Assembly (NCBI GenBank): GCA_035543335.1
Contig: DASZZH010000026.1
Location: 15,508 to 79,507, forward strand
From: Burkholderiales bacterium
GTDB lineage: Bacteria; Pseudomonadota; Gammaproteobacteria; Burkholderiales; JAHFRG01
Direction: 5' to 3'
Length of the DNA: 64,000 nucleotides
In this document: piece by piece, positions 50,175-54,960 of the stretch
Position numbering within the stretch: position 1 is the stretch's first letter
Layout: every line of letters starts with the position of its first letter
Notes under the pieces: model-generated
Told to the model about the DNA's origin: nothing
Seen by the model: only the letters and a program-made list of their open reading frames with translations
Database searches by the model: none
Made by a program: the position numbers and the translations under genes

Positions 50175-50966
50175 TTAGCTGGCATTGTTGCCCCGTTTGT
50201 TCGCCAGCTGCTTACGCCACTGGTTCCCGAGTCCGTCATGCAAAGAAGACAGGCGCGGACCCAGTGCCCTAAGCAAAGCGACTGCATCTGTACAAGTTGG
50301 AAATCCGACCGCAGGATAAAACAACTTGGCATCACCAGTGTCAGTCTGCCGCTTAGGCGCAAGTTGATACTTGGAAAATACCCCTGGCACTTCGTCCTCA
50401 AATGCGCTAAGGCAAACAACAATTGCGACGCGCGAAAACACGCCAGCCACAGATATCGCATTGTGAATGTTTAGCGAATCAATCCCAAGCGAGCCCTCTG
50501 AGAAGTCAGGATCGCGCGTCTCCGCCAGAGAGATCGCGAGAGTGAGCTGGCCCCGAATGTCGTCAATGGGTCGAAGTATCCGTTCGCGGAGGGTGTATTT
50601 GACTGTGTATACATGGCGAGGGTGCGTAAAGACCCACCAGAGGCCTTCAAATTTCCACATCCAGCGCACGACTAGCTCGGCTTCGTTGTCCGAAAGACCT
50701 TTTCGGGCTTCGATGTCGTCAAAGACTCTAGACATTGGTGATTCGATCTCGCGACCGAAATCAGAATTGCAGCGCTCGCAAAGTGGGAGGGTAGCGTTCA
50801 AGGCGGATACTCCATCCCTTCCACCCCAAGAGATTCCGTCGCGGACGGTTCCCGTTCTCTCCACCAGCCAGACGGGAAAGAAATGTTCTTTGTTCATCTT
50901 GCGGCCCGATTCGCCGCAAGCTGCGCACACTTGCTTAAAAAGTTTCCCAGCGCCGGGCGCGACCAT
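50175..50966 (-). CDS. HNH-like (HNH_5-type CxxC...EH...CxxCN) protein with an uncharacterised C-terminal domain
   Basis: 263 aa with CAACG...NKEHFFPVWL...CERCNSDFG. Codon usage is atypical for the window. Confidence 0.5.
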   Translation of the reverse strand: MVAPGAGKLFKQVCAACGESGRKMNKEHFFPVWLVERTGTVRDGISWGGRDGVSALNATLPLCERCNSDFGREIESPMSRVFDDIEARKGLSDNEAELVVRWMWKFEGLWWVFTHPRHVYTVKYTLRERILRPIDDIRGQLTLAISLAETRDPDFSEGSLGIDSLNIHNAISVAGVFSRVAIVVCLSAFEDEVPGVFSKYQLAPKRQTDTGDAKLFYPAVGFPTCTDAVALLRALGPRLSSLHDGLGNQWRKQLANKRGNNAS

Positions 50967-51047
50967 GGACGCCAGCTAACGAGCAAGCTCACCGGCGCGC
51001 CGCTTGCGGCGCGTCGCTCTGCAAGCCGTTGTTACGTTGCGCATGTG

Positions 51048-51983
51048 TCAGCTCTTGAACTCGTCAAAGAACCGATGATCGATCTCGAACGTAGTGCGGG
51101 AAGCAAGCCCAAGTTCGAGTTTTTCTAGCAATGAGACGAGTGCCTGGCCGTCCACAAGTTCTATTGGTGGTACACCGTCACGTACGGCCTCAGCTTGAGC
51201 CTCAGTAGAAAACGTACCTGTGGTTAGTACCAGCCCCTTATCCGCGCGGCCCATCATGGCACCGCGAAAATTCCTGACTTCCGGTGACCCAACAGCCCCA
51301 CGATAGCGCTTGCACTGGAAAAGAACCTTGAAGCTGACAAACGTACTGACTTGAAGAATTCCGATGCCGTCAATTCCGCCGTCTCCAGATCGACCTGTTA
51401 CTTTCACCTGCTGAAATCCGGACTCTCGAAGCAAGCGCTGACAGAGCCTTTCGAATCCCGCCGGTGGCAACGACTGCATGATGTCAAGCACTCGCTCTCG
51501 GTAGGAGCGGTCAATCTCTTCGGGCGCGGGCCGTGATGATTCCTGTTGGACGACCTTTTCAAGTTGGTCGTCGGTCAGTGGACGGGCCTTCGCAACTGAA
51601 GCATTTTCGGTGCTAGAGCGCCGAATGATCTCGGCAATCTGTTCGTCGGACAGTGTTCCCGCGGCGCGTCCTTGCTCCGTCAGCGACCAGACGCTCCTCG
51701 TAGACGAATCAAGGAATCCAGTCCGCACGAGGTAAAAACGCACCCAAGCGACGTCATTCTCAAACTGTGAATTCCCGCTTGGATTTTCCTTATCCCTATC
51801 CGTTTGAGAAATGTCGAGATGCTCCGCTATCCAGTCGCAAACCTCACCGGGCCTTGCGGACCCACCAAGAGCCCGAAGCGCATCCAGTACAGGATTGAAA
51901 TACTTCGCAAAGCGCGTCCGTGTTGAGCGCGTAGTTAGAACGCGATCAGTGGCTTGTAGGGTCTGTCGGCGGATTAAGGGCAT
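51048..51983 (-). CDS. Mrr-type restriction endonuclease (Mrr_N winged helix plus Mrr_cat)
   Basis: The N-terminal FNPVLDALRALGGSARPGEV...VWSLTEQG is wHTH-like. The C-terminal GDGGIDGIG...FQCKRY...GLVLTTGTFS is a PD-(D/E)xK core. ATG 51983 overlaps the upstream ORF by 38 nt. Confidence 0.8.
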   Translation of the reverse strand: MPLIRRQTLQATDRVLTTRSTRTRFAKYFNPVLDALRALGGSARPGEVCDWIAEHLDISQTDRDKENPSGNSQFENDVAWVRFYLVRTGFLDSSTRSVWSLTEQGRAAGTLSDEQIAEIIRRSSTENASVAKARPLTDDQLEKVVQQESSRPAPEEIDRSYRERVLDIMQSLPPAGFERLCQRLLRESGFQQVKVTGRSGDGGIDGIGILQVSTFVSFKVLFQCKRYRGAVGSPEVRNFRGAMMGRADKGLVLTTGTFSTEAQAEAVRDGVPPIELVDGQALVSLLEKLELGLASRTTFEIDHRFFDEFKS

Positions 51984-52470
51984 CCCAGAGCACATCTGCG
52001 TTTCGTTTGAGGGCCTCAGTCGACGTTCCATACTTCGGCAGTAGAGCGTCGAGGAGTTTGCATATGGCAAGATCTCTTTTTCGGACATTGTTCCGGATCG
52101 CGCGCAGCTCTTCGATCACCTCTAGCCGTCCTTTCGGATCCGTAAACCGTGGAGTGTTCTTAGTCATGTATCCATGGATGACGGCGTTTCGTTGATCCAC
52201 GCCCTCGCGCAGGAAGGATTCGAAATCGCTCGGGAACTCGATCTGCCCCTTTAGGGCTGCGACGAGCCCGCCGAGCGTTTTCTCGGAATGAAAATCCCAG
52301 GAGGCCTGGAACGCCTGACCAGCAGAGGGTAGACGTTGCTCTGACATAAGGGCCAGAAGCAGACAAAGGCTGTTCTCGAATAACTGACAGATGTAGACCG
52401 TGGCTCCGAACTCCAGCATCACCGGGTCGAGTGTTTCGCGAACGTGGCTGCGCGCATCCGTCATGGGCAT
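51946..52470 (-). CDS. hypothetical all-helical protein with an Rx4H (HEPN-type) motif
   Basis: 174 aa. The motif DQRNAVIHGY lies in the middle of predicted helices. It is the first gene of the co-directional cluster. Confidence 0.45.
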   Translation of the reverse strand: MPMTDARSHVRETLDPVMLEFGATVYICQLFENSLCLLLALMSEQRLPSAGQAFQASWDFHSEKTLGGLVAALKGQIEFPSDFESFLREGVDQRNAVIHGYMTKNTPRFTDPKGRLEVIEELRAIRNNVRKRDLAICKLLDALLPKYGTSTEALKRNADVLWDALNPPTDPTSH

Positions 52471-52493
52471 CTTCGCGTTCTAACTAGTTATTG

Positions 52494-52932
52494 ACACCTA
52501 AAAAGGTGTAATTAATTGCGCCAAATTCAGCATGATTTTGTCATCCTACACCAGAATCAGGATGTCATGAGAGACCCGTTTTGGCTTGAGAAATATTCCA
52601 CTCTGTGAGCCGCCAGGCGACGAGGACAAATCGGGGGAATTCGAGCGAGCACTGTCTGAGCACGTGGCCGCGAAGCGAATCGTGCGAGTTGCGCAGCGCC
52701 CGATTTGGCTGAGGCGCGCAAGGAACCCGCAGGACGGCGAACCGGGGTCGCCTTTTCTTTGGTTAATTTCTTTTGGCGACGCAAAAGAAAGTAACCAGCC
52801 GCCGGGCTGCCCCCGGCGAATTTGGGGGTTCCCCTCACTCCCTTCGGCAAGCCTGTCCTGAGCGTTCGCGCTCATCGACTCGCTCCCTTCGACAAGCTCA
52901 GGGCGAACGGTCGAAGGACTCAGGACAGGCTC
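52494..52932. repeat. composite repeat, copy A (modules 1-4)
   Basis: It is collinear with copy C at 54294-54960. Module 1 is 52494-52570, module 2 is 52598-52750, the hairpin module GGTTAATTTCTTTTGG/CAAAAGAAAGTAACC follows, and the GCCTGTCCTGAG...CTCAGGACAGGC hairpin closes the unit. Confidence 0.75.
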
Positions 52933-53036: not shown

Positions 53037-53315
53037 TCACGCCGCAAGCTTCGTCACGCGGAGTTGCTTGCGTCGCTGTTCCGCATGCCACAGGTCATAC
53101 TGCGTCTGCTGATTTAGCCAGCTCTCAGCAGAGGTGTCAAAAGCGATCGAGAGGCGCACAGCCATCTCCGGACTAATGCCGGCACGGCCGTTCAAGATGG
53201 CAGAGAGAGTCTTGCGGCTGACGCCAAGGCCCTTCGCCGCTTCAGTCACCGAAAGGCCGAGCGGCTCCAGGCAAAGAGACTTAATGATTTCTCCGGGATG
53301 GGGCGGATTGTGCAT
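53037..53315 (-). CDS. higA: HigA-family antitoxin (XRE HTH)
   Basis: 92 aa with [11 protein letters not shown]...[23 protein letters not shown]. The true ATG is at 53315. Confidence 0.85.
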
Positions 53316-53331
53316 ACGCACGGCAATTCCT

Positions 53332-53614
53332 CTAATGGTAATCCTCGTAATCGACTTGATCCGCATCTTTTCCGACAAAGGTAAAAGTCACTCGCCAATT
53401 TCCGCTGACCTTTACGGCCCATGTGCCCTTGCGCTCGCCTTTTTACCGGTGAAGAGCAAGGCCGGGAAGGCCCATATCCTCTGGCGCCGTCGCGGCACTC
53501 AGGCGGCCAAGAATGAGTCGCAGACGTTCAGCGTGTGGAGGCTGGATGCCGGATTTGGAGCCGGTCTCGAAGAACCTGACCAAACCCTTGTGCTTGAATC
53601 CTGTTGCGGATCAC
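53332..53614 (-). pseudogene. higB: HigB/RelE-type toxin gene inactivated by an N-terminal frameshift and an in-frame TAA
   Basis: The minus-strand reading gives GTG-ATC-CGC-AAC-AGG-A then FKHKGLVRFFETGSKSGIQPPHAERLRLILGRL...[28 protein letters not shown]...VDYEDYH. The TAA is at 53443-53445. Confidence 0.75.
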
Positions 53615-53648: not shown

Positions 53649-53716
53649 AAGGTACCCAACTAGATAGTGTACTGAATTGCGACTCGGGGAACATTCTTCA
53701 CGACAGCACTTTAATA

Positions 53717-53868
53717 CCCTCTGTGAGCCGCCAAGCGGCGAGGACAAATCGGGGGAAGTGAAGCGAGCACTGTTTGAGCACGTGGCCGCGAAGCGGATCG
53801 TGCGAGTTGCGCAGCGCCCGATTTGGCCGAGGCGCGCAGGGAACCCGCAGGGCGGCGAGGCGGGGCGG
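53717..53868. repeat. composite repeat, partial copy B (module 2 only)
   Basis: CCCTCTGTGAGCCGCCAAGCGGCGAGGACAAATCGGGGGAA...GAACCCGCAGGGCGGCGA aligns with 52598-52750. It is flanked by TTGCGACTCGGGG (53677) and TTAGGCGACTCG (53889). Confidence 0.65.
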
Positions 53869-53915: not shown

Positions 53916-54257
53916 CTATTGTTTATCGAGATGGAGCCTATGCAAAATACGGTGGGCGAACGGCGCTACCAATACGGACGCCACAGCAATGAAAGCTAAG
54001 CCTGAAAATAGAGCGTAAAAGGAAGCGAAGAGCTTCGCCATTGGTTTGTGAAGAGGATCCACTGGTCCCATCCCGCTCAGAATCATCGAAGCATTCAGTA
54101 ACGCATCCAGCCATGGCAACTCTGCAAAGTAGTGGTAACCGACAACTCCAATCCCCAAACCAAAGCCCAGGACAAAAAGGGCAAGTATCACATGACGCGC
54201 AACGCGCCTTGCAAAGGTAGCACGGCTCAGGAGATGCTGCGTCCGATGTTCGTACAT
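53916..54257 (-). CDS. small two-TM membrane protein with a re-entrant-loop-like middle segment
   Basis: 113 aa. It has TM1 (VILALFVLGFGLGIGVVGY), the segment WLDALLNASMILSGMGPVDP, and TM2 (LFSGLAFIAVASVLVAPF). It is bracketed by a perfect 12-nt inverted repeat. Confidence 0.5.
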   Translation of the reverse strand: MYEHRTQHLLSRATFARRVARHVILALFVLGFGLGIGVVGYHYFAELPWLDALLNASMILSGMGPVDPLHKPMAKLFASFYALFSGLAFIAVASVLVAPFAHRILHRLHLDKQ

Positions 54258-54293
54258 GACCCGAGTCGCCTAATTAGATATAGACACCCGAAA

Positions 54294-54960
54294 AGGTGTA
54301 ATTAATTGCGCCAAATTCAGCACGATTTTGTCATCCTACACCAGAATCAAGATGTCATATGAGAACCCTTTTGGCTTGTGAAATATTCCCCTCTGTGAGC
54401 CGCCAAGTGACGAGGACAAAGCGGGGGAATTGGAGCGAGCACTGTCTGAGCGCGTAACGCGCGAGTTGCGCAGGGTCCGATTTGGCTGAGAAGCGCGGTG
54501 TGCCACGGCTCACGGTAGGCGAAGTCTTGTTGAAAGAAGGCGAGTTCGCCGCAAATAACACTGTCACTTCCGTGGCACTTGCCACTGCTCCCGCACCCCA
54601 GGCTTCGCCGACCGTGTCACAGTGGCTATCCCTTAGGGGCGGCGAGCCGAGATCGCCTTTTCTTTGGTAATTTTCTTTTGGCCGCGCAAGAGAAAGTAAC
54701 CAGCCGCCGGTGCGCCTCGGATCACGGTGAGCGCAGCTTTGTGCGGAGACGAGGAGCAGGGCTGAAAGAAACACTGTTAGCCGAGGCTTATGCGGCCGCT
54801 CCCGCACCCCAAGCTTCGCTGACCATGTCGCGGCCGCCCACCTATGAATTTGGGTTTTCCCCTCACTCCTTCGACAAGCCTGTCCTGAGCGTTCGCGCTC
54901 ATCGACTCGCTCCCTTCGACGGGCTCAGGGCGAACGGTCGCTAGGACTCAGTACAGGCTC
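54294..54960. repeat. composite repeat, copy C (modules 1-4 plus internal insertions)
   Basis: Its start is offset exactly 1800 bp from copy A. It contains two extra copies of CTCCCGCACCCCA(G/A)GCTTCGC and ends 15 nt before the leuA stop. Confidence 0.75.

What the first reader, a model, noticed from the sequence alone, without database searches (positions are those of the whole stretch)
50175..52470. Co-directional nuclease cluster: Rx4H (HEPN-like) protein overlapping an Mrr-type endonuclease, followed by an HNH-like protein
Three minus-strand genes sit together with codon usage visibly different from the flanks: CTT, TCT, AGA and GGA codons are common here, whereas the flanks are dominated by CTG, GCC and CGC. 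The first gene is a 174-aa helical protein whose only recognisable feature is DQRNAVIHGY, an R-x4-H motif with N after R, as in HEPN RNases. Its last 38 nt overlap the ATG of a 311-aa protein that has an Mrr_N-like winged helix and an Mrr_cat PD-(D/E)xK core, which suggests translational coupling. After 81 nt and a GC-rich hairpin comes a 263-aa protein with a CxxC...EH...CxxCN HNH_5-type head and an unassigned ~170-aa tail. I do not recognise this combination of a putative RNase, a modification-dependent DNase and a third nuclease-like protein as a named defence system. It is the best candidate in the window for an undescribed anti-phage module.
Basis: partly seen in the sequence, partly recalled or inferred. 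Interest (0 to 1): 0.7.

Follow-up and report, generated by a model that had tools for sequence, protein, structure and literature searches.

The report
Three unrelated nuclease genes, one islet
The three neighbouring genes are real and nuclease-like: a small HEPN-like protein, an ordinary Mrr restriction enzyme and an HNH-like zinc-finger protein. Their relatives elsewhere almost never sit together, so this looks like a small patch of separately acquired defence-type genes rather than a new three-part anti-phage system.

Summary
All three minus-strand ORFs, the 38-nt overlap, the 81-nt spacer, the motifs and the atypical codon usage are present as described.

Domain calls:
- B is a canonical Mrr_N + Mrr_cat type IV restriction enzyme.
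- A has an invariant R-N-x3-H motif. It belongs to a large unannotated family of ~170-aa all-helical proteins, some of which give sub-threshold HepT-like or DUF4145 matches centred on the motif. No fold search confirmed HEPN.
- C has a conserved CxxC…EH…CxxCN head that scores below the Pfam HNH_5 cut-off, plus a tail with no detectable fold match.

The system-level claim fails.
- Of 57 loci carrying A homologues, 47 have at least 500 bp downstream. Only a 96%-identical relative has Mrr next door.
- In that relative the two genes are separated by a hairpin and Mrr has its own ribosome-binding site. The overlap here therefore looks like a local ~96-nt deletion.
- None of the 57 loci carries C.
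- The five distinct loci with C homologues carry neither A nor Mrr.
- No gene recurs next to A or C.

The best reading is a horizontally acquired defence islet at about 50.1–54.9 kb. It holds independent single-gene modules, REP-like repeats and a decayed higBA. Interest is modest, and lies in two unannotated candidate single-gene nuclease families.

The parts
51946..52470 (-). Gene A: 174-aa (172 aa from the second ATG) all-helical HEPN-like protein with invariant R94-N95-x3-H99 and conserved E32. It belongs to a large unannotated family of solitary ~170-aa proteins.
   Evidence: ORF. Alignments A1 and A3. 1565 representative clusters at E<=1e-3. AF2 pLDDT 86, seven helices. Sub-threshold HepT-like/DUF4145 hits at the motif. 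No Pfam, NCBIfam or PADLOC hit for the protein itself.
51048..51983 (-). Gene B: Mrr-type type IV restriction endonuclease (Mrr_N winged helix + Mrr_cat PD-(D/E)xK, GIDG...FQCKRY). The ORF stays open up to 52088. The 311-aa start at 51983 lies inside gene A.
   Evidence: Pfam Mrr_N 1.3e-20 and Mrr_cat 5e-32. PADLOC mREase_IV 3.4e-27 and PDC-S02 6.5e-28. No canonical start codon between 51983 and the Mrr_N domain (sequence).
50175..50966 (-). Gene C: 263-aa protein with a zinc-ribbon beta-beta-alpha-Me (HNH_5-like) head (C14xxC17, E27H28, C63xxC66N67) and a conserved ~170-aa alpha/beta tail with no detectable fold match.
   Evidence: ORF. HNH_5 2.4e-4, below cut-off, matched by 10 of 23 family members. 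Invariant residues in A2. AF2 pLDDT 90. No Foldseek PDB match. The NCBI call (P0021) starts at M24.
50996..51013 (-). GC-rich hairpin (CGCGCCG-CAAG-CGGCGCG) in the 81-nt B-C spacer, with no T tract after it.
   Evidence: strand folding (z = -0.2, not unusual). Not called by the terminator scan.
52480..52913 (.). Composite REP/MITE-like repeat directly upstream of gene A. Further copies lie at 54270-54940 and 53712-53865. Its last ~110 nt also precede the 113-aa membrane ORF.
   Evidence: the repeat finder; alignment; 27-mer search; also present upstream of A in L049.
53037..53378 (-). Islet context: intact HigA antitoxin gene. The HigB toxin gene upstream of it (about 53379-53600) is a pseudogene.
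   Evidence: TIGR02607 6.8e-33. Frame translation shows a missing start and an in-frame stop in HigB.
53916..54257 (-). Islet context: 113-aa small membrane ORF that shares its upstream sequence with gene A.
   Evidence: ORF; weak Ion_trans_2 hit at 0.045; repeats.

Best explanation
Window 50.1-54.9 kb is a small horizontally acquired variable or defence islet between a HugZ/PNPOx-like gene and leuA. It holds three independent single-gene nuclease-type modules that ended up side by side, and they do not form a three-component machine.

- B is an ordinary Mrr-family type IV (modification-dependent) restriction endonuclease acting on DNA. The domains are shown; the activity is inferred from the family.
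- A is a member of a large, unannotated family of solitary ~170-aa helical proteins. Their invariant R-N-x3-H motif and upstream glutamate match the HEPN RNase signature. A most likely acts as a dimeric metal-independent RNase of the abortive-infection or toxin type (inferred).
- C is a solitary zinc-ribbon HNH-type (beta-beta-alpha-metal) nuclease. Its conserved C-terminal domain probably provides target recognition or regulation (inferred).

The 38-nt A/B overlap is a lineage-specific result of a ~96-nt deletion that removed an inter-cistronic hairpin and Mrr's own RBS and start codon. The three genes may be co-transcribed here, but that is local history and not a conserved design.
For: Co-occurrence:
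- tblastn with B and C against all loci that carry A homologues gave Mrr only in L049, the 97%-identical relative, and gave C nowhere. That is 57 loci, 47 of them with at least 500 bp downstream.
- Clustering all neighbouring ORFs found no recurrent partner beyond duplicate contigs.
- Contexts of A vary. They include a RadC/HATPase/SLFN_AlbA_2 island, housekeeping genes, IS-rich plasmid regions, HicAB plus an IS element, an AAA_15/21 ATPase, hsdM-hsdS and a Ymh protein.
- C homologues are solitary. Their upstream small ORFs are unrelated to each other.

Junction:
- L049 has A, then a GC hairpin, then AGGA and ATG(MPVSRSRFAKYF...). This ~96-nt segment is absent from the window.
- Nucleotide identity is 96% across A. 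Over the 47 nt of Mrr that can be compared it drops to about 83%, and every difference is synonymous.

Domains.

Foreign composition. Repeats and the decayed higBA.
Against: - A-then-Mrr adjacency is kept in the one close relative available (L049), so a local functional link between A and Mrr cannot be excluded.
- One other A homologue sits 117 nt upstream of a type I R-M operon (L022), which hints at a loose affinity for restriction systems.
- Most homologue contigs are short metagenomic pieces, and tblastn with B would miss unrelated restriction enzymes.
- The HEPN assignment rests on a motif and on sub-threshold profile hits. Foldseek against PDB and BFVD found nothing significant.
- No defence phenotype is known for A or C.
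Confidence: 0.7

Rival explanations
1. A and Mrr form a two-gene functional pair of the PrrC/EcoprrI kind. The HEPN-like RNase is held latent by, or guards, the restriction enzyme, and fires when a phage inhibits Mrr. C is a bystander.
For: - A and Mrr are adjacent and co-directional both here and in the 96%-identical L049.
- Another A homologue lies directly upstream of hsdM-hsdS.
- At least 16 HEPN clades are reported as linked to R-M systems, with PrrC as the paradigm (PMC3710099).
Against: - 46 of 47 informative A loci lack Mrr.
- The overlap is not conserved; L049 has a hairpin and a separate RBS between the genes.
- A and Mrr differ in divergence between the two lineages (96% against about 83% nucleotide identity), which suggests separate histories.
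Confidence: 0.12
2. One reading: A, B and C are one integrated three-gene anti-phage system combining an RNase with two DNases.
For: The genes are co-directional and tightly packed, share atypical codon usage and have no obvious terminator between them.
Against: - No locus other than this window holds any two of the three families together, apart from A+Mrr in one near-identical relative.
- C homologues sit alone among housekeeping genes or IS elements.
- PADLOC has no multi-gene model that matches.
Confidence: 0.04
3. A is not a nuclease. It would be a helical regulatory, immunity or adaptor protein whose RNxxxH motif serves binding rather than catalysis, as in non-catalytic HEPN-like domains.
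For: - No profile hit reaches a curated threshold.
- No HEPN structure was retrieved by Foldseek or by a PDB profile search.
- A solitary constitutive RNase with no antitoxin partner would be expected to be toxic, and no partner was found.
Against: - R, N and H are invariant or nearly so across a family with about 21% mean column identity. That is the pattern expected of catalytic residues.
- 20 of 25 weak Pfam hits across members fall in HEPN-clan families and align at the motif.
Confidence: 0.15
4. C is a selfish, homing-type HNH element rather than a defence gene.
For: It occurs as a solitary gene dropped into unrelated intergenic contexts and next to IS elements on plasmids. It also has a weak match to a phage protein family, phrog_10503.
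Against: No intron, intein or repeat boundaries are seen around it. The large, well-conserved C-terminal domain carries many invariant charged residues, which is atypical of minimal homing HNH enzymes. It also lies within a defence-type islet here.
Confidence: 0.15

Closest known systems
Mrr / type IV methyl-directed restriction endonucleases (Pfam Mrr_N + Mrr_cat; PADLOC mREase_IV)
   Same: Gene B has both domains well above Pfam thresholds, the D...QxK core (GIDG...FQCKRY), and no methyltransferase partner among the ORFs of 46-57 kb.
   Different: It carries a 23-residue Arg/Thr-rich N-terminal extension because its start codon now lies inside gene A. The close relative L049 has a normal start (MPVSRSRFAKYF...).
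HepT (DUF86) toxins of HEPN/MNT toxin-antitoxin systems, e.g. Shewanella SO_3166 (PDB 5YEP)
   Same: A is a small all-helical protein with an R-N-x3-H-x-Y motif (RNAVIHGY, against GLRNIAVHDY in 5YEP). 15 of 89 family members give weak HepT-like Pfam hits aligned at the motif.
   Different: There is no MNT nucleotidyltransferase neighbour here or in any homologue locus. A is ~40 residues longer, with three helices after the motif. No hit reaches the gathering score.
DUF4145 and other HEPN families linked or fused to restriction enzymes; the PrrC-EcoprrI paradigm (Anantharaman et al. 2013, PMC3710099)
   Same: A putative HEPN gene lies next to a restriction endonuclease. Two family members weakly hit DUF4145. 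One homologue lies upstream of hsdM-hsdS.
   Different: The linkage is not conserved for this family (1 of 47 loci). There is no fusion, and no ABC-ATPase or anticodon-nuclease domain as in PrrC/RloC.
Single-gene HEPN defences (ApeA, AbiD/F/J/U2/V, HEC-08 of Payne et al. 2024, bioRxiv 10.1101/2024.01.29.577857)
   Same: It is a solitary gene, lies in defence-island or mobile contexts, and has an Rx4-6H motif.
   Different: A has no extra sensor or N-terminal domain, has no detectable sequence relation to those families, and has not been tested.
HNH_5 (PF14279) zinc-ribbon HNH endonucleases
   Same: C has CxxC...EH...CxxCN with invariant E27, H28, C63, C66 and N67, and a predicted beta-beta-alpha element.
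   Different: It scores below the gathering cut-off (21.4 against 27.5 bits). It has a longer insert between EH and CxxCN, and a ~170-aa conserved C-terminal domain with no Pfam, PADLOC, NCBIfam or Foldseek-PDB match.

Membership tests
HEPN superfamily (gene A) | Rx4-6H motif with a polar residue (N/D/H) after R | tested here: met
   R94, N95 and H99 are invariant in 21 close homologues. N95 and H99 are invariant and R94 is at least 90% conserved in 89 diverse members.
HEPN superfamily (gene A) | Second conserved acidic residue upstream of the motif (typically Ex3[KR]) | tested here: inconclusive
   E32 in helix 1 is at least 90% conserved, but it is not followed by K/R at +4 (ENSLC).
HEPN superfamily (gene A) | All-alpha four-helix core recognisable by profile or fold comparison | tested here: inconclusive
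HEPN superfamily (gene A) | Metal-independent RNase activity | not testable with these tools
   Needs biochemistry.
HepT/MNT type II/VII toxin-antitoxin | Adjacent MNT nucleotidyltransferase antitoxin gene | tested here: not met
   The window has a repeat element upstream and Mrr downstream. Neighbour clustering over 44 loci found no recurrent partner, and the neighbours scanned against Pfam showed no NTP-transferase.
Mrr type IV restriction endonuclease (gene B) | Mrr_N winged helix plus Mrr_cat PD-(D/E)xK domain above curated thresholds | tested here: met
   73.8 bits against 29.5, and 110.9 bits against 21. PADLOC mREase_IV 3.4e-27 over residues 59-342.
Mrr type IV restriction endonuclease (gene B) | Stand-alone, with no cognate methyltransferase | tested here: met
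   No methyltransferase-like ORF lies among the ORFs of 46-57 kb.
Mrr type IV restriction endonuclease (gene B) | Cleavage depends on modified DNA | not testable with these tools
   Needs experiment.
HNH_5 / His-Me finger nucleases (gene C) | Pfam HNH_5 match at the gathering score | tested here: not met
   21.4 bits against a 27.5-bit cut-off, E=2.4e-4, covering only profile positions 22-55. 10 of 23 family members match weakly.
HNH_5 / His-Me finger nucleases (gene C) | Conserved CxxC...(D/E)H...CxxCN residues on a beta-beta-alpha element | tested here: met
   E27, H28, C63, C66 and N67 are invariant, and the first CxxC is present in all full-length homologues. AF2 predicts strands 24-28, 45-53 and 59-63 followed by helix 64-86.
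Conserved multi-gene defence system (A+B+C or A+B) | Recurrent co-occurrence of the component genes across diverse genomes | tested here: not met
   Of 57 A loci, Mrr appears only in the 97%-identical L049 and C appears in none. The five distinct C loci carry neither A nor Mrr.
Known defence systems in PADLOC-DB v2 | Match to a system model | tested here: not met
   A and C gave no hit at E<=1. B matched only the single-gene models mREase_IV and PDC-S02.

The most novel reading that the evidence does not exclude
Gene A would represent a large, unnamed HEPN-like family (about 1,500 clusters at 50% identity) of minimal, partner-less RNases. They would act as stand-alone abortive-infection effectors, or as 'guards' that lodge next to whichever restriction system is present (Mrr here, type I in L022). 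Gene C would be a second new single-gene defence nuclease with a novel sensor domain.
Probability: 0.2. Interest if true: 0.55.

Novelty: new member of a known kind. Interest (0 to 1): 0.3.

Why it matters
If tested, A and C could add two compact single-gene entries to the catalogue of defence or toxin nucleases, and would give names to two currently unannotated families. A would also raise a question: how is a ~170-aa HEPN protein with no antitoxin or sensor domain kept harmless? As a 'system', though, the cluster shows only the familiar clustering of independent defence genes in islands. It should not be entered in defence-system databases as a three-gene module.

Tried and rejected
- **Profile search of the A family against PDB sequences.** No HEPN hit at E<=10.
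- **hhalign of the A family against single HEPN (PF05168) and Ymh proteins found in related loci.** Not significant. The Ymh alignment did pair the two RNxxxH motifs.
- **A consensus DUF86 sequence typed from memory.** It was used only to pull out PDB HepT chains for motif comparison and is not counted as evidence of homology.
- **A third database search using the A3 profile.** It returned only unannotated proteins.
- **Scan of viral contigs for A.** Nothing found.
- **Exact lookup of the source contig through P0021.** Not on record.
- **A conserved small partner gene upstream of C.** The 148-aa and 138-aa ORFs are unrelated.
- **The B-C hairpin as a terminator or regulatory element.** It folds no better than shuffled sequence and has no T tract.
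- **Rfam scan of the islet.** No match.
- **Sigma-70 promoter scan.** No site found.
- **The ~96-nt L049 segment as a repeat element.** It does not occur elsewhere in the window or in the other loci.
Full report
**1. What is in the sequence**

- A is 51946-52470, 174 aa, and contains DQRNAVIHGY.
- B is an ORF open from 52088 to 51048. Its ATG at 51983 gives the 311-aa product and a 38-nt overlap with A.
- C is 50175-50966, 263 aa, with C14xxC17, E27-H28 and C63xxC66-N67.
- The B-C spacer is 81 nt. It contains a 7-bp GC stem with a CAAG loop at about 50996-51013.

The spacer folds no better than shuffled sequence (z = -0.2), has no T run, and was not called by the terminator scan.

The codon-usage remark is quantitatively right.
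- GC3 is 0.64, 0.55 and 0.57 for A, B and C. The other long ORFs of the window average 0.697 +/- 0.061.
- The four named 'rare' codons occur at 63-87 per 1000, against 32 +/- 18.
- The same atypical composition extends to about 54.9 kb.

An exact-identity hit for C (P0021, 'MAG TPA: Burkholderiales bacterium, VHE58_07045') places the window in a Burkholderiales metagenome-assembled genome.

**2. The three proteins**

*B is a standard Mrr-family type IV restriction endonuclease.* Mrr_N scores 1.3e-20 and Mrr_cat 5e-32, both far above the Pfam cut-offs. PADLOC gives mREase_IV at 3.4e-27 over nearly the full length. The GIDG...FQCKRY core is intact (sequence). No methyltransferase lies among the ORFs of 46-57 kb.

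*A has no hit of its own in Pfam, NCBIfam or PADLOC*, but it is a real conserved protein.
- There are 20 close homologues of 172-178 aa. L38, G67, G90, R94, N95, H99, R115, E121, D133 and Y147 are invariant.
- An exhaustive profile search found 1565 representative clusters at E<=1e-3, almost all 155-185 aa long.
- Across 89 diverse members (mean column identity 21%), the motif a-x-x-R-N-x-h-h-H-x-[YF] is the dominant conserved feature. N95 and H99 are invariant. R94, E32, Q29, G22 and G67 are at least 90% conserved.
- This matches the HEPN signature described by Anantharaman et al.: Rx4-6H, a polar N/D/H after R, and an upstream acidic residue (PMC3710099).

Scanning all 89 members against Pfam gave 25 weak hits (E<0.01).
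- Twenty of these are to HEPN-clan families: HepT-like 15, DUF4145 2, HEPN_Apea 2 and RiboL-PSP 1.
- The HepT-like and DUF4145 hits I inspected align the motif region of the proteins to the motif region of the profiles.
- None reaches a gathering score.

I therefore call A 'HEPN-like, probably a HepT/DUF4145-related RNase'. This is supported by the motif and by repeated weak profile evidence. It is not confirmed at fold level.

*C belongs to a family of at least 48 proteins of about 237-286 aa*.
- E27, H28, P31, W33, L34, C63, C66 and N67 are invariant, along with many C-terminal residues: E75, E97, R101, W102, W104, K105, Y120, R138, D163, K214 and H243.
- The first CxxC is present in every full-length homologue. 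The 263-aa start is therefore better than the NCBI call, which begins at M24.
- HNH_5 is matched below threshold by 10 of 23 members.
- The AF2 model (pLDDT 90) has a beta-beta-alpha element at the head and an alpha/beta tail.
- Foldseek against PDB finds nothing. PADLOC and NCBIfam find nothing.

**3. Do the genes belong together?**

I collected loci encoding A homologues from several sources: exact-protein lookups, GTDB genomes, JGI metagenomes and plasmids.
- tblastn with B and C against all of them found Mrr only in L049 and found C nowhere. That is 57 loci, 47 with at least 500 bp and 36 with at least 1 kb downstream of A.
- Clustering all ORFs within 2.5 kb of A across the first 44 loci found no neighbour shared between different contexts.

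The contexts of A are heterogeneous:
- a RadC / HATPase_c_3 / SLFN_AlbA_2 / SMC-like island with a resolvase;
- housekeeping genes;
- transposase-rich plasmid regions;
- HicAB plus an IS element;
- a 4-nt overlap with an unknown 146-aa gene, followed by an AAA_15/21 ATPase;
- a Ymh (HEPN) protein;
- a TrfA replicon;
- in L022, a position 117 nt upstream of hsdM-hsdS and a NucS_C-like gene.

C homologues sit alone between housekeeping genes, or next to IS elements on chromosomes and conjugative plasmids. The small ORFs upstream of two of them are unrelated to each other.

**4. The A/Mrr junction**

L049 is a 1.5-kb contig that is 96% identical in nucleotide sequence across A and its upstream repeat. 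It also has Mrr after A, but the junction differs.
- After the shared sequence ...TRSTRTR, L049 carries about 96 extra nucleotides.
- These consist of a strong GC hairpin, an AGGA, and an ATG that opens MPVSRSRFAKYFNPVLDAL.... That is a normal Mrr N-terminus, since the Mrr_N profile starts at FAKYF.
- In L049, A and Mrr are therefore separate cistrons about 110 nt apart.
- In the window this segment is missing. No canonical start codon remains between 51983 and the Mrr_N domain, so the ORF must start at an ATG inside A.
- Past the junction, the 47 comparable nucleotides are only about 83% identical. All differences are synonymous, against 96% identity in A, which points to different histories for the two genes.

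The overlap is best explained as a local deletion, not as designed translational coupling.

**5. The surroundings**

Directly upstream of A lies a composite REP/MITE-like repeat at 52480-52913. It recurs at 54270-54940 and, in part, at 53712-53865.
- Its terminal ~110 nt precede both A and a 113-aa membrane ORF at 53916-54257.
- A 68-nt piece of it recurs in Muproteobacteria loci.
- Between the copies lie an intact higA (TIGR02607 6.8e-33) and a higB remnant that lacks a start codon and has an in-frame stop.
- There is no Rfam match.

Together with the composition, this marks 50.1-54.9 kb as an acquired, decaying variable islet between a HugZ/PNPOx-like gene and leuA.

**6. Most likely mechanism**

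Each gene most likely acts alone.
- Mrr cleaves modified incoming DNA (inferred from the family).
- A probably dimerises to form a composite Rx4H RNase site and acts as an abortive-infection or toxin-type RNase. How it is kept inactive is unknown (inferred).
- C probably nicks or cuts DNA with a zinc-stabilised His-Me finger, with E27/H28 as the base and N67 as the metal ligand. Its conserved tail would supply recognition or regulation (inferred).

The genes may be co-transcribed here, but this is local history. I put this reading at about 0.7.

A PrrC/EcoprrI-style A-Mrr pair remains possible, at about 0.12. It is supported by L049, L022 and the literature theme, and opposed by 46 of 47 loci. 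The integrated three-gene system is unlikely, at about 0.04.

**7. Comparison with what is known, and novelty**

HEPN genes next to or fused with restriction endonucleases, including REase-fold and HNH DNases, were catalogued in 2013. At least 16 HEPN clades show R-M linkage (PMC3710099). Single-gene HEPN defences such as HEC-08 have since been shown experimentally (bioRxiv 10.1101/2024.01.29.577857).

The combination seen here is therefore not a new kind of system. What is new is modest: two sizeable families (A and C) with no Pfam, NCBIfam or PADLOC model. Both are plausible single-gene nuclease effectors found in mobile and defence-island contexts.

Novelty is 'new member of a known kind', and interest is about 0.3.

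Noticed in passing
window 52480-52913, 53712-53865, 54270-54940: A composite REP/MITE-like repeat occurs in three copies. Its last ~110 nt sit directly upstream of both gene A and the 113-aa membrane ORF (53916-54257), so the two genes share a near-identical 5' region. A 27-mer from this region occurs only at those two places in the window. A 68-nt piece (52750-52817) is 90% identical in Muproteobacteria loci L016/L041/L042. There is no Rfam or sigma-70 promoter match.
   Followed up: partly
window 53037-53600 (-): higA is intact (TIGR02607 6.8e-33). The higB toxin gene upstream of it is a pseudogene: it has no start codon and an in-frame TAA (...PGLALHR*KGERKG...). It abuts a repeat copy.
   Followed up: yes
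window 50898-50966 (-): The public annotation of gene C (P0021, 240 aa, VHE58_07045) starts at M24. This cuts off the first CxxC, which is conserved in all full-length homologues, so the 263-aa start fits the family better.
   Followed up: yes
L049 1356-1470, compared with window about 51905-51915: The 96%-identical relative carries about 96 extra nt between A and Mrr: a GC hairpin, AGGA, and an ATG that gives a canonical Mrr N-terminus. The window lacks this segment, which forces Mrr to start inside gene A. Past the junction, nucleotide identity drops to about 83%, and all differences are synonymous.
   Followed up: yes
L022 2082-7326: An A homologue (50% identity) lies 117 nt upstream of, and co-directional with, hsdM, hsdS and a NucS_C-like REase-fold gene. 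This is the only other restriction-system context found for the family.
   Followed up: partly
L023 887-1864; L025 4336-5214: In these loci the gene immediately downstream of the A homologue encodes a Hypoth_Ymh (HEPN-clan) protein, giving two putative HEPN genes side by side.
   Followed up: no
L058-L061 (e.g. L058 349-2848): A distant A-family member (P0220, 161 aa) overlaps an unknown 146-aa gene by 4 nt. An AAA_15/AAA_21 ATPase and a large serine recombinase follow. This may be a different, genuinely operonic arrangement for this branch of the family.
   Followed up: no
window 52007-52088 (-): The Mrr reading frame stays open for 35 codons upstream of the ATG at 51983, with three further in-frame ATGs inside gene A. 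None of the candidate starts has a convincing Shine-Dalgarno sequence.
   Followed up: partly
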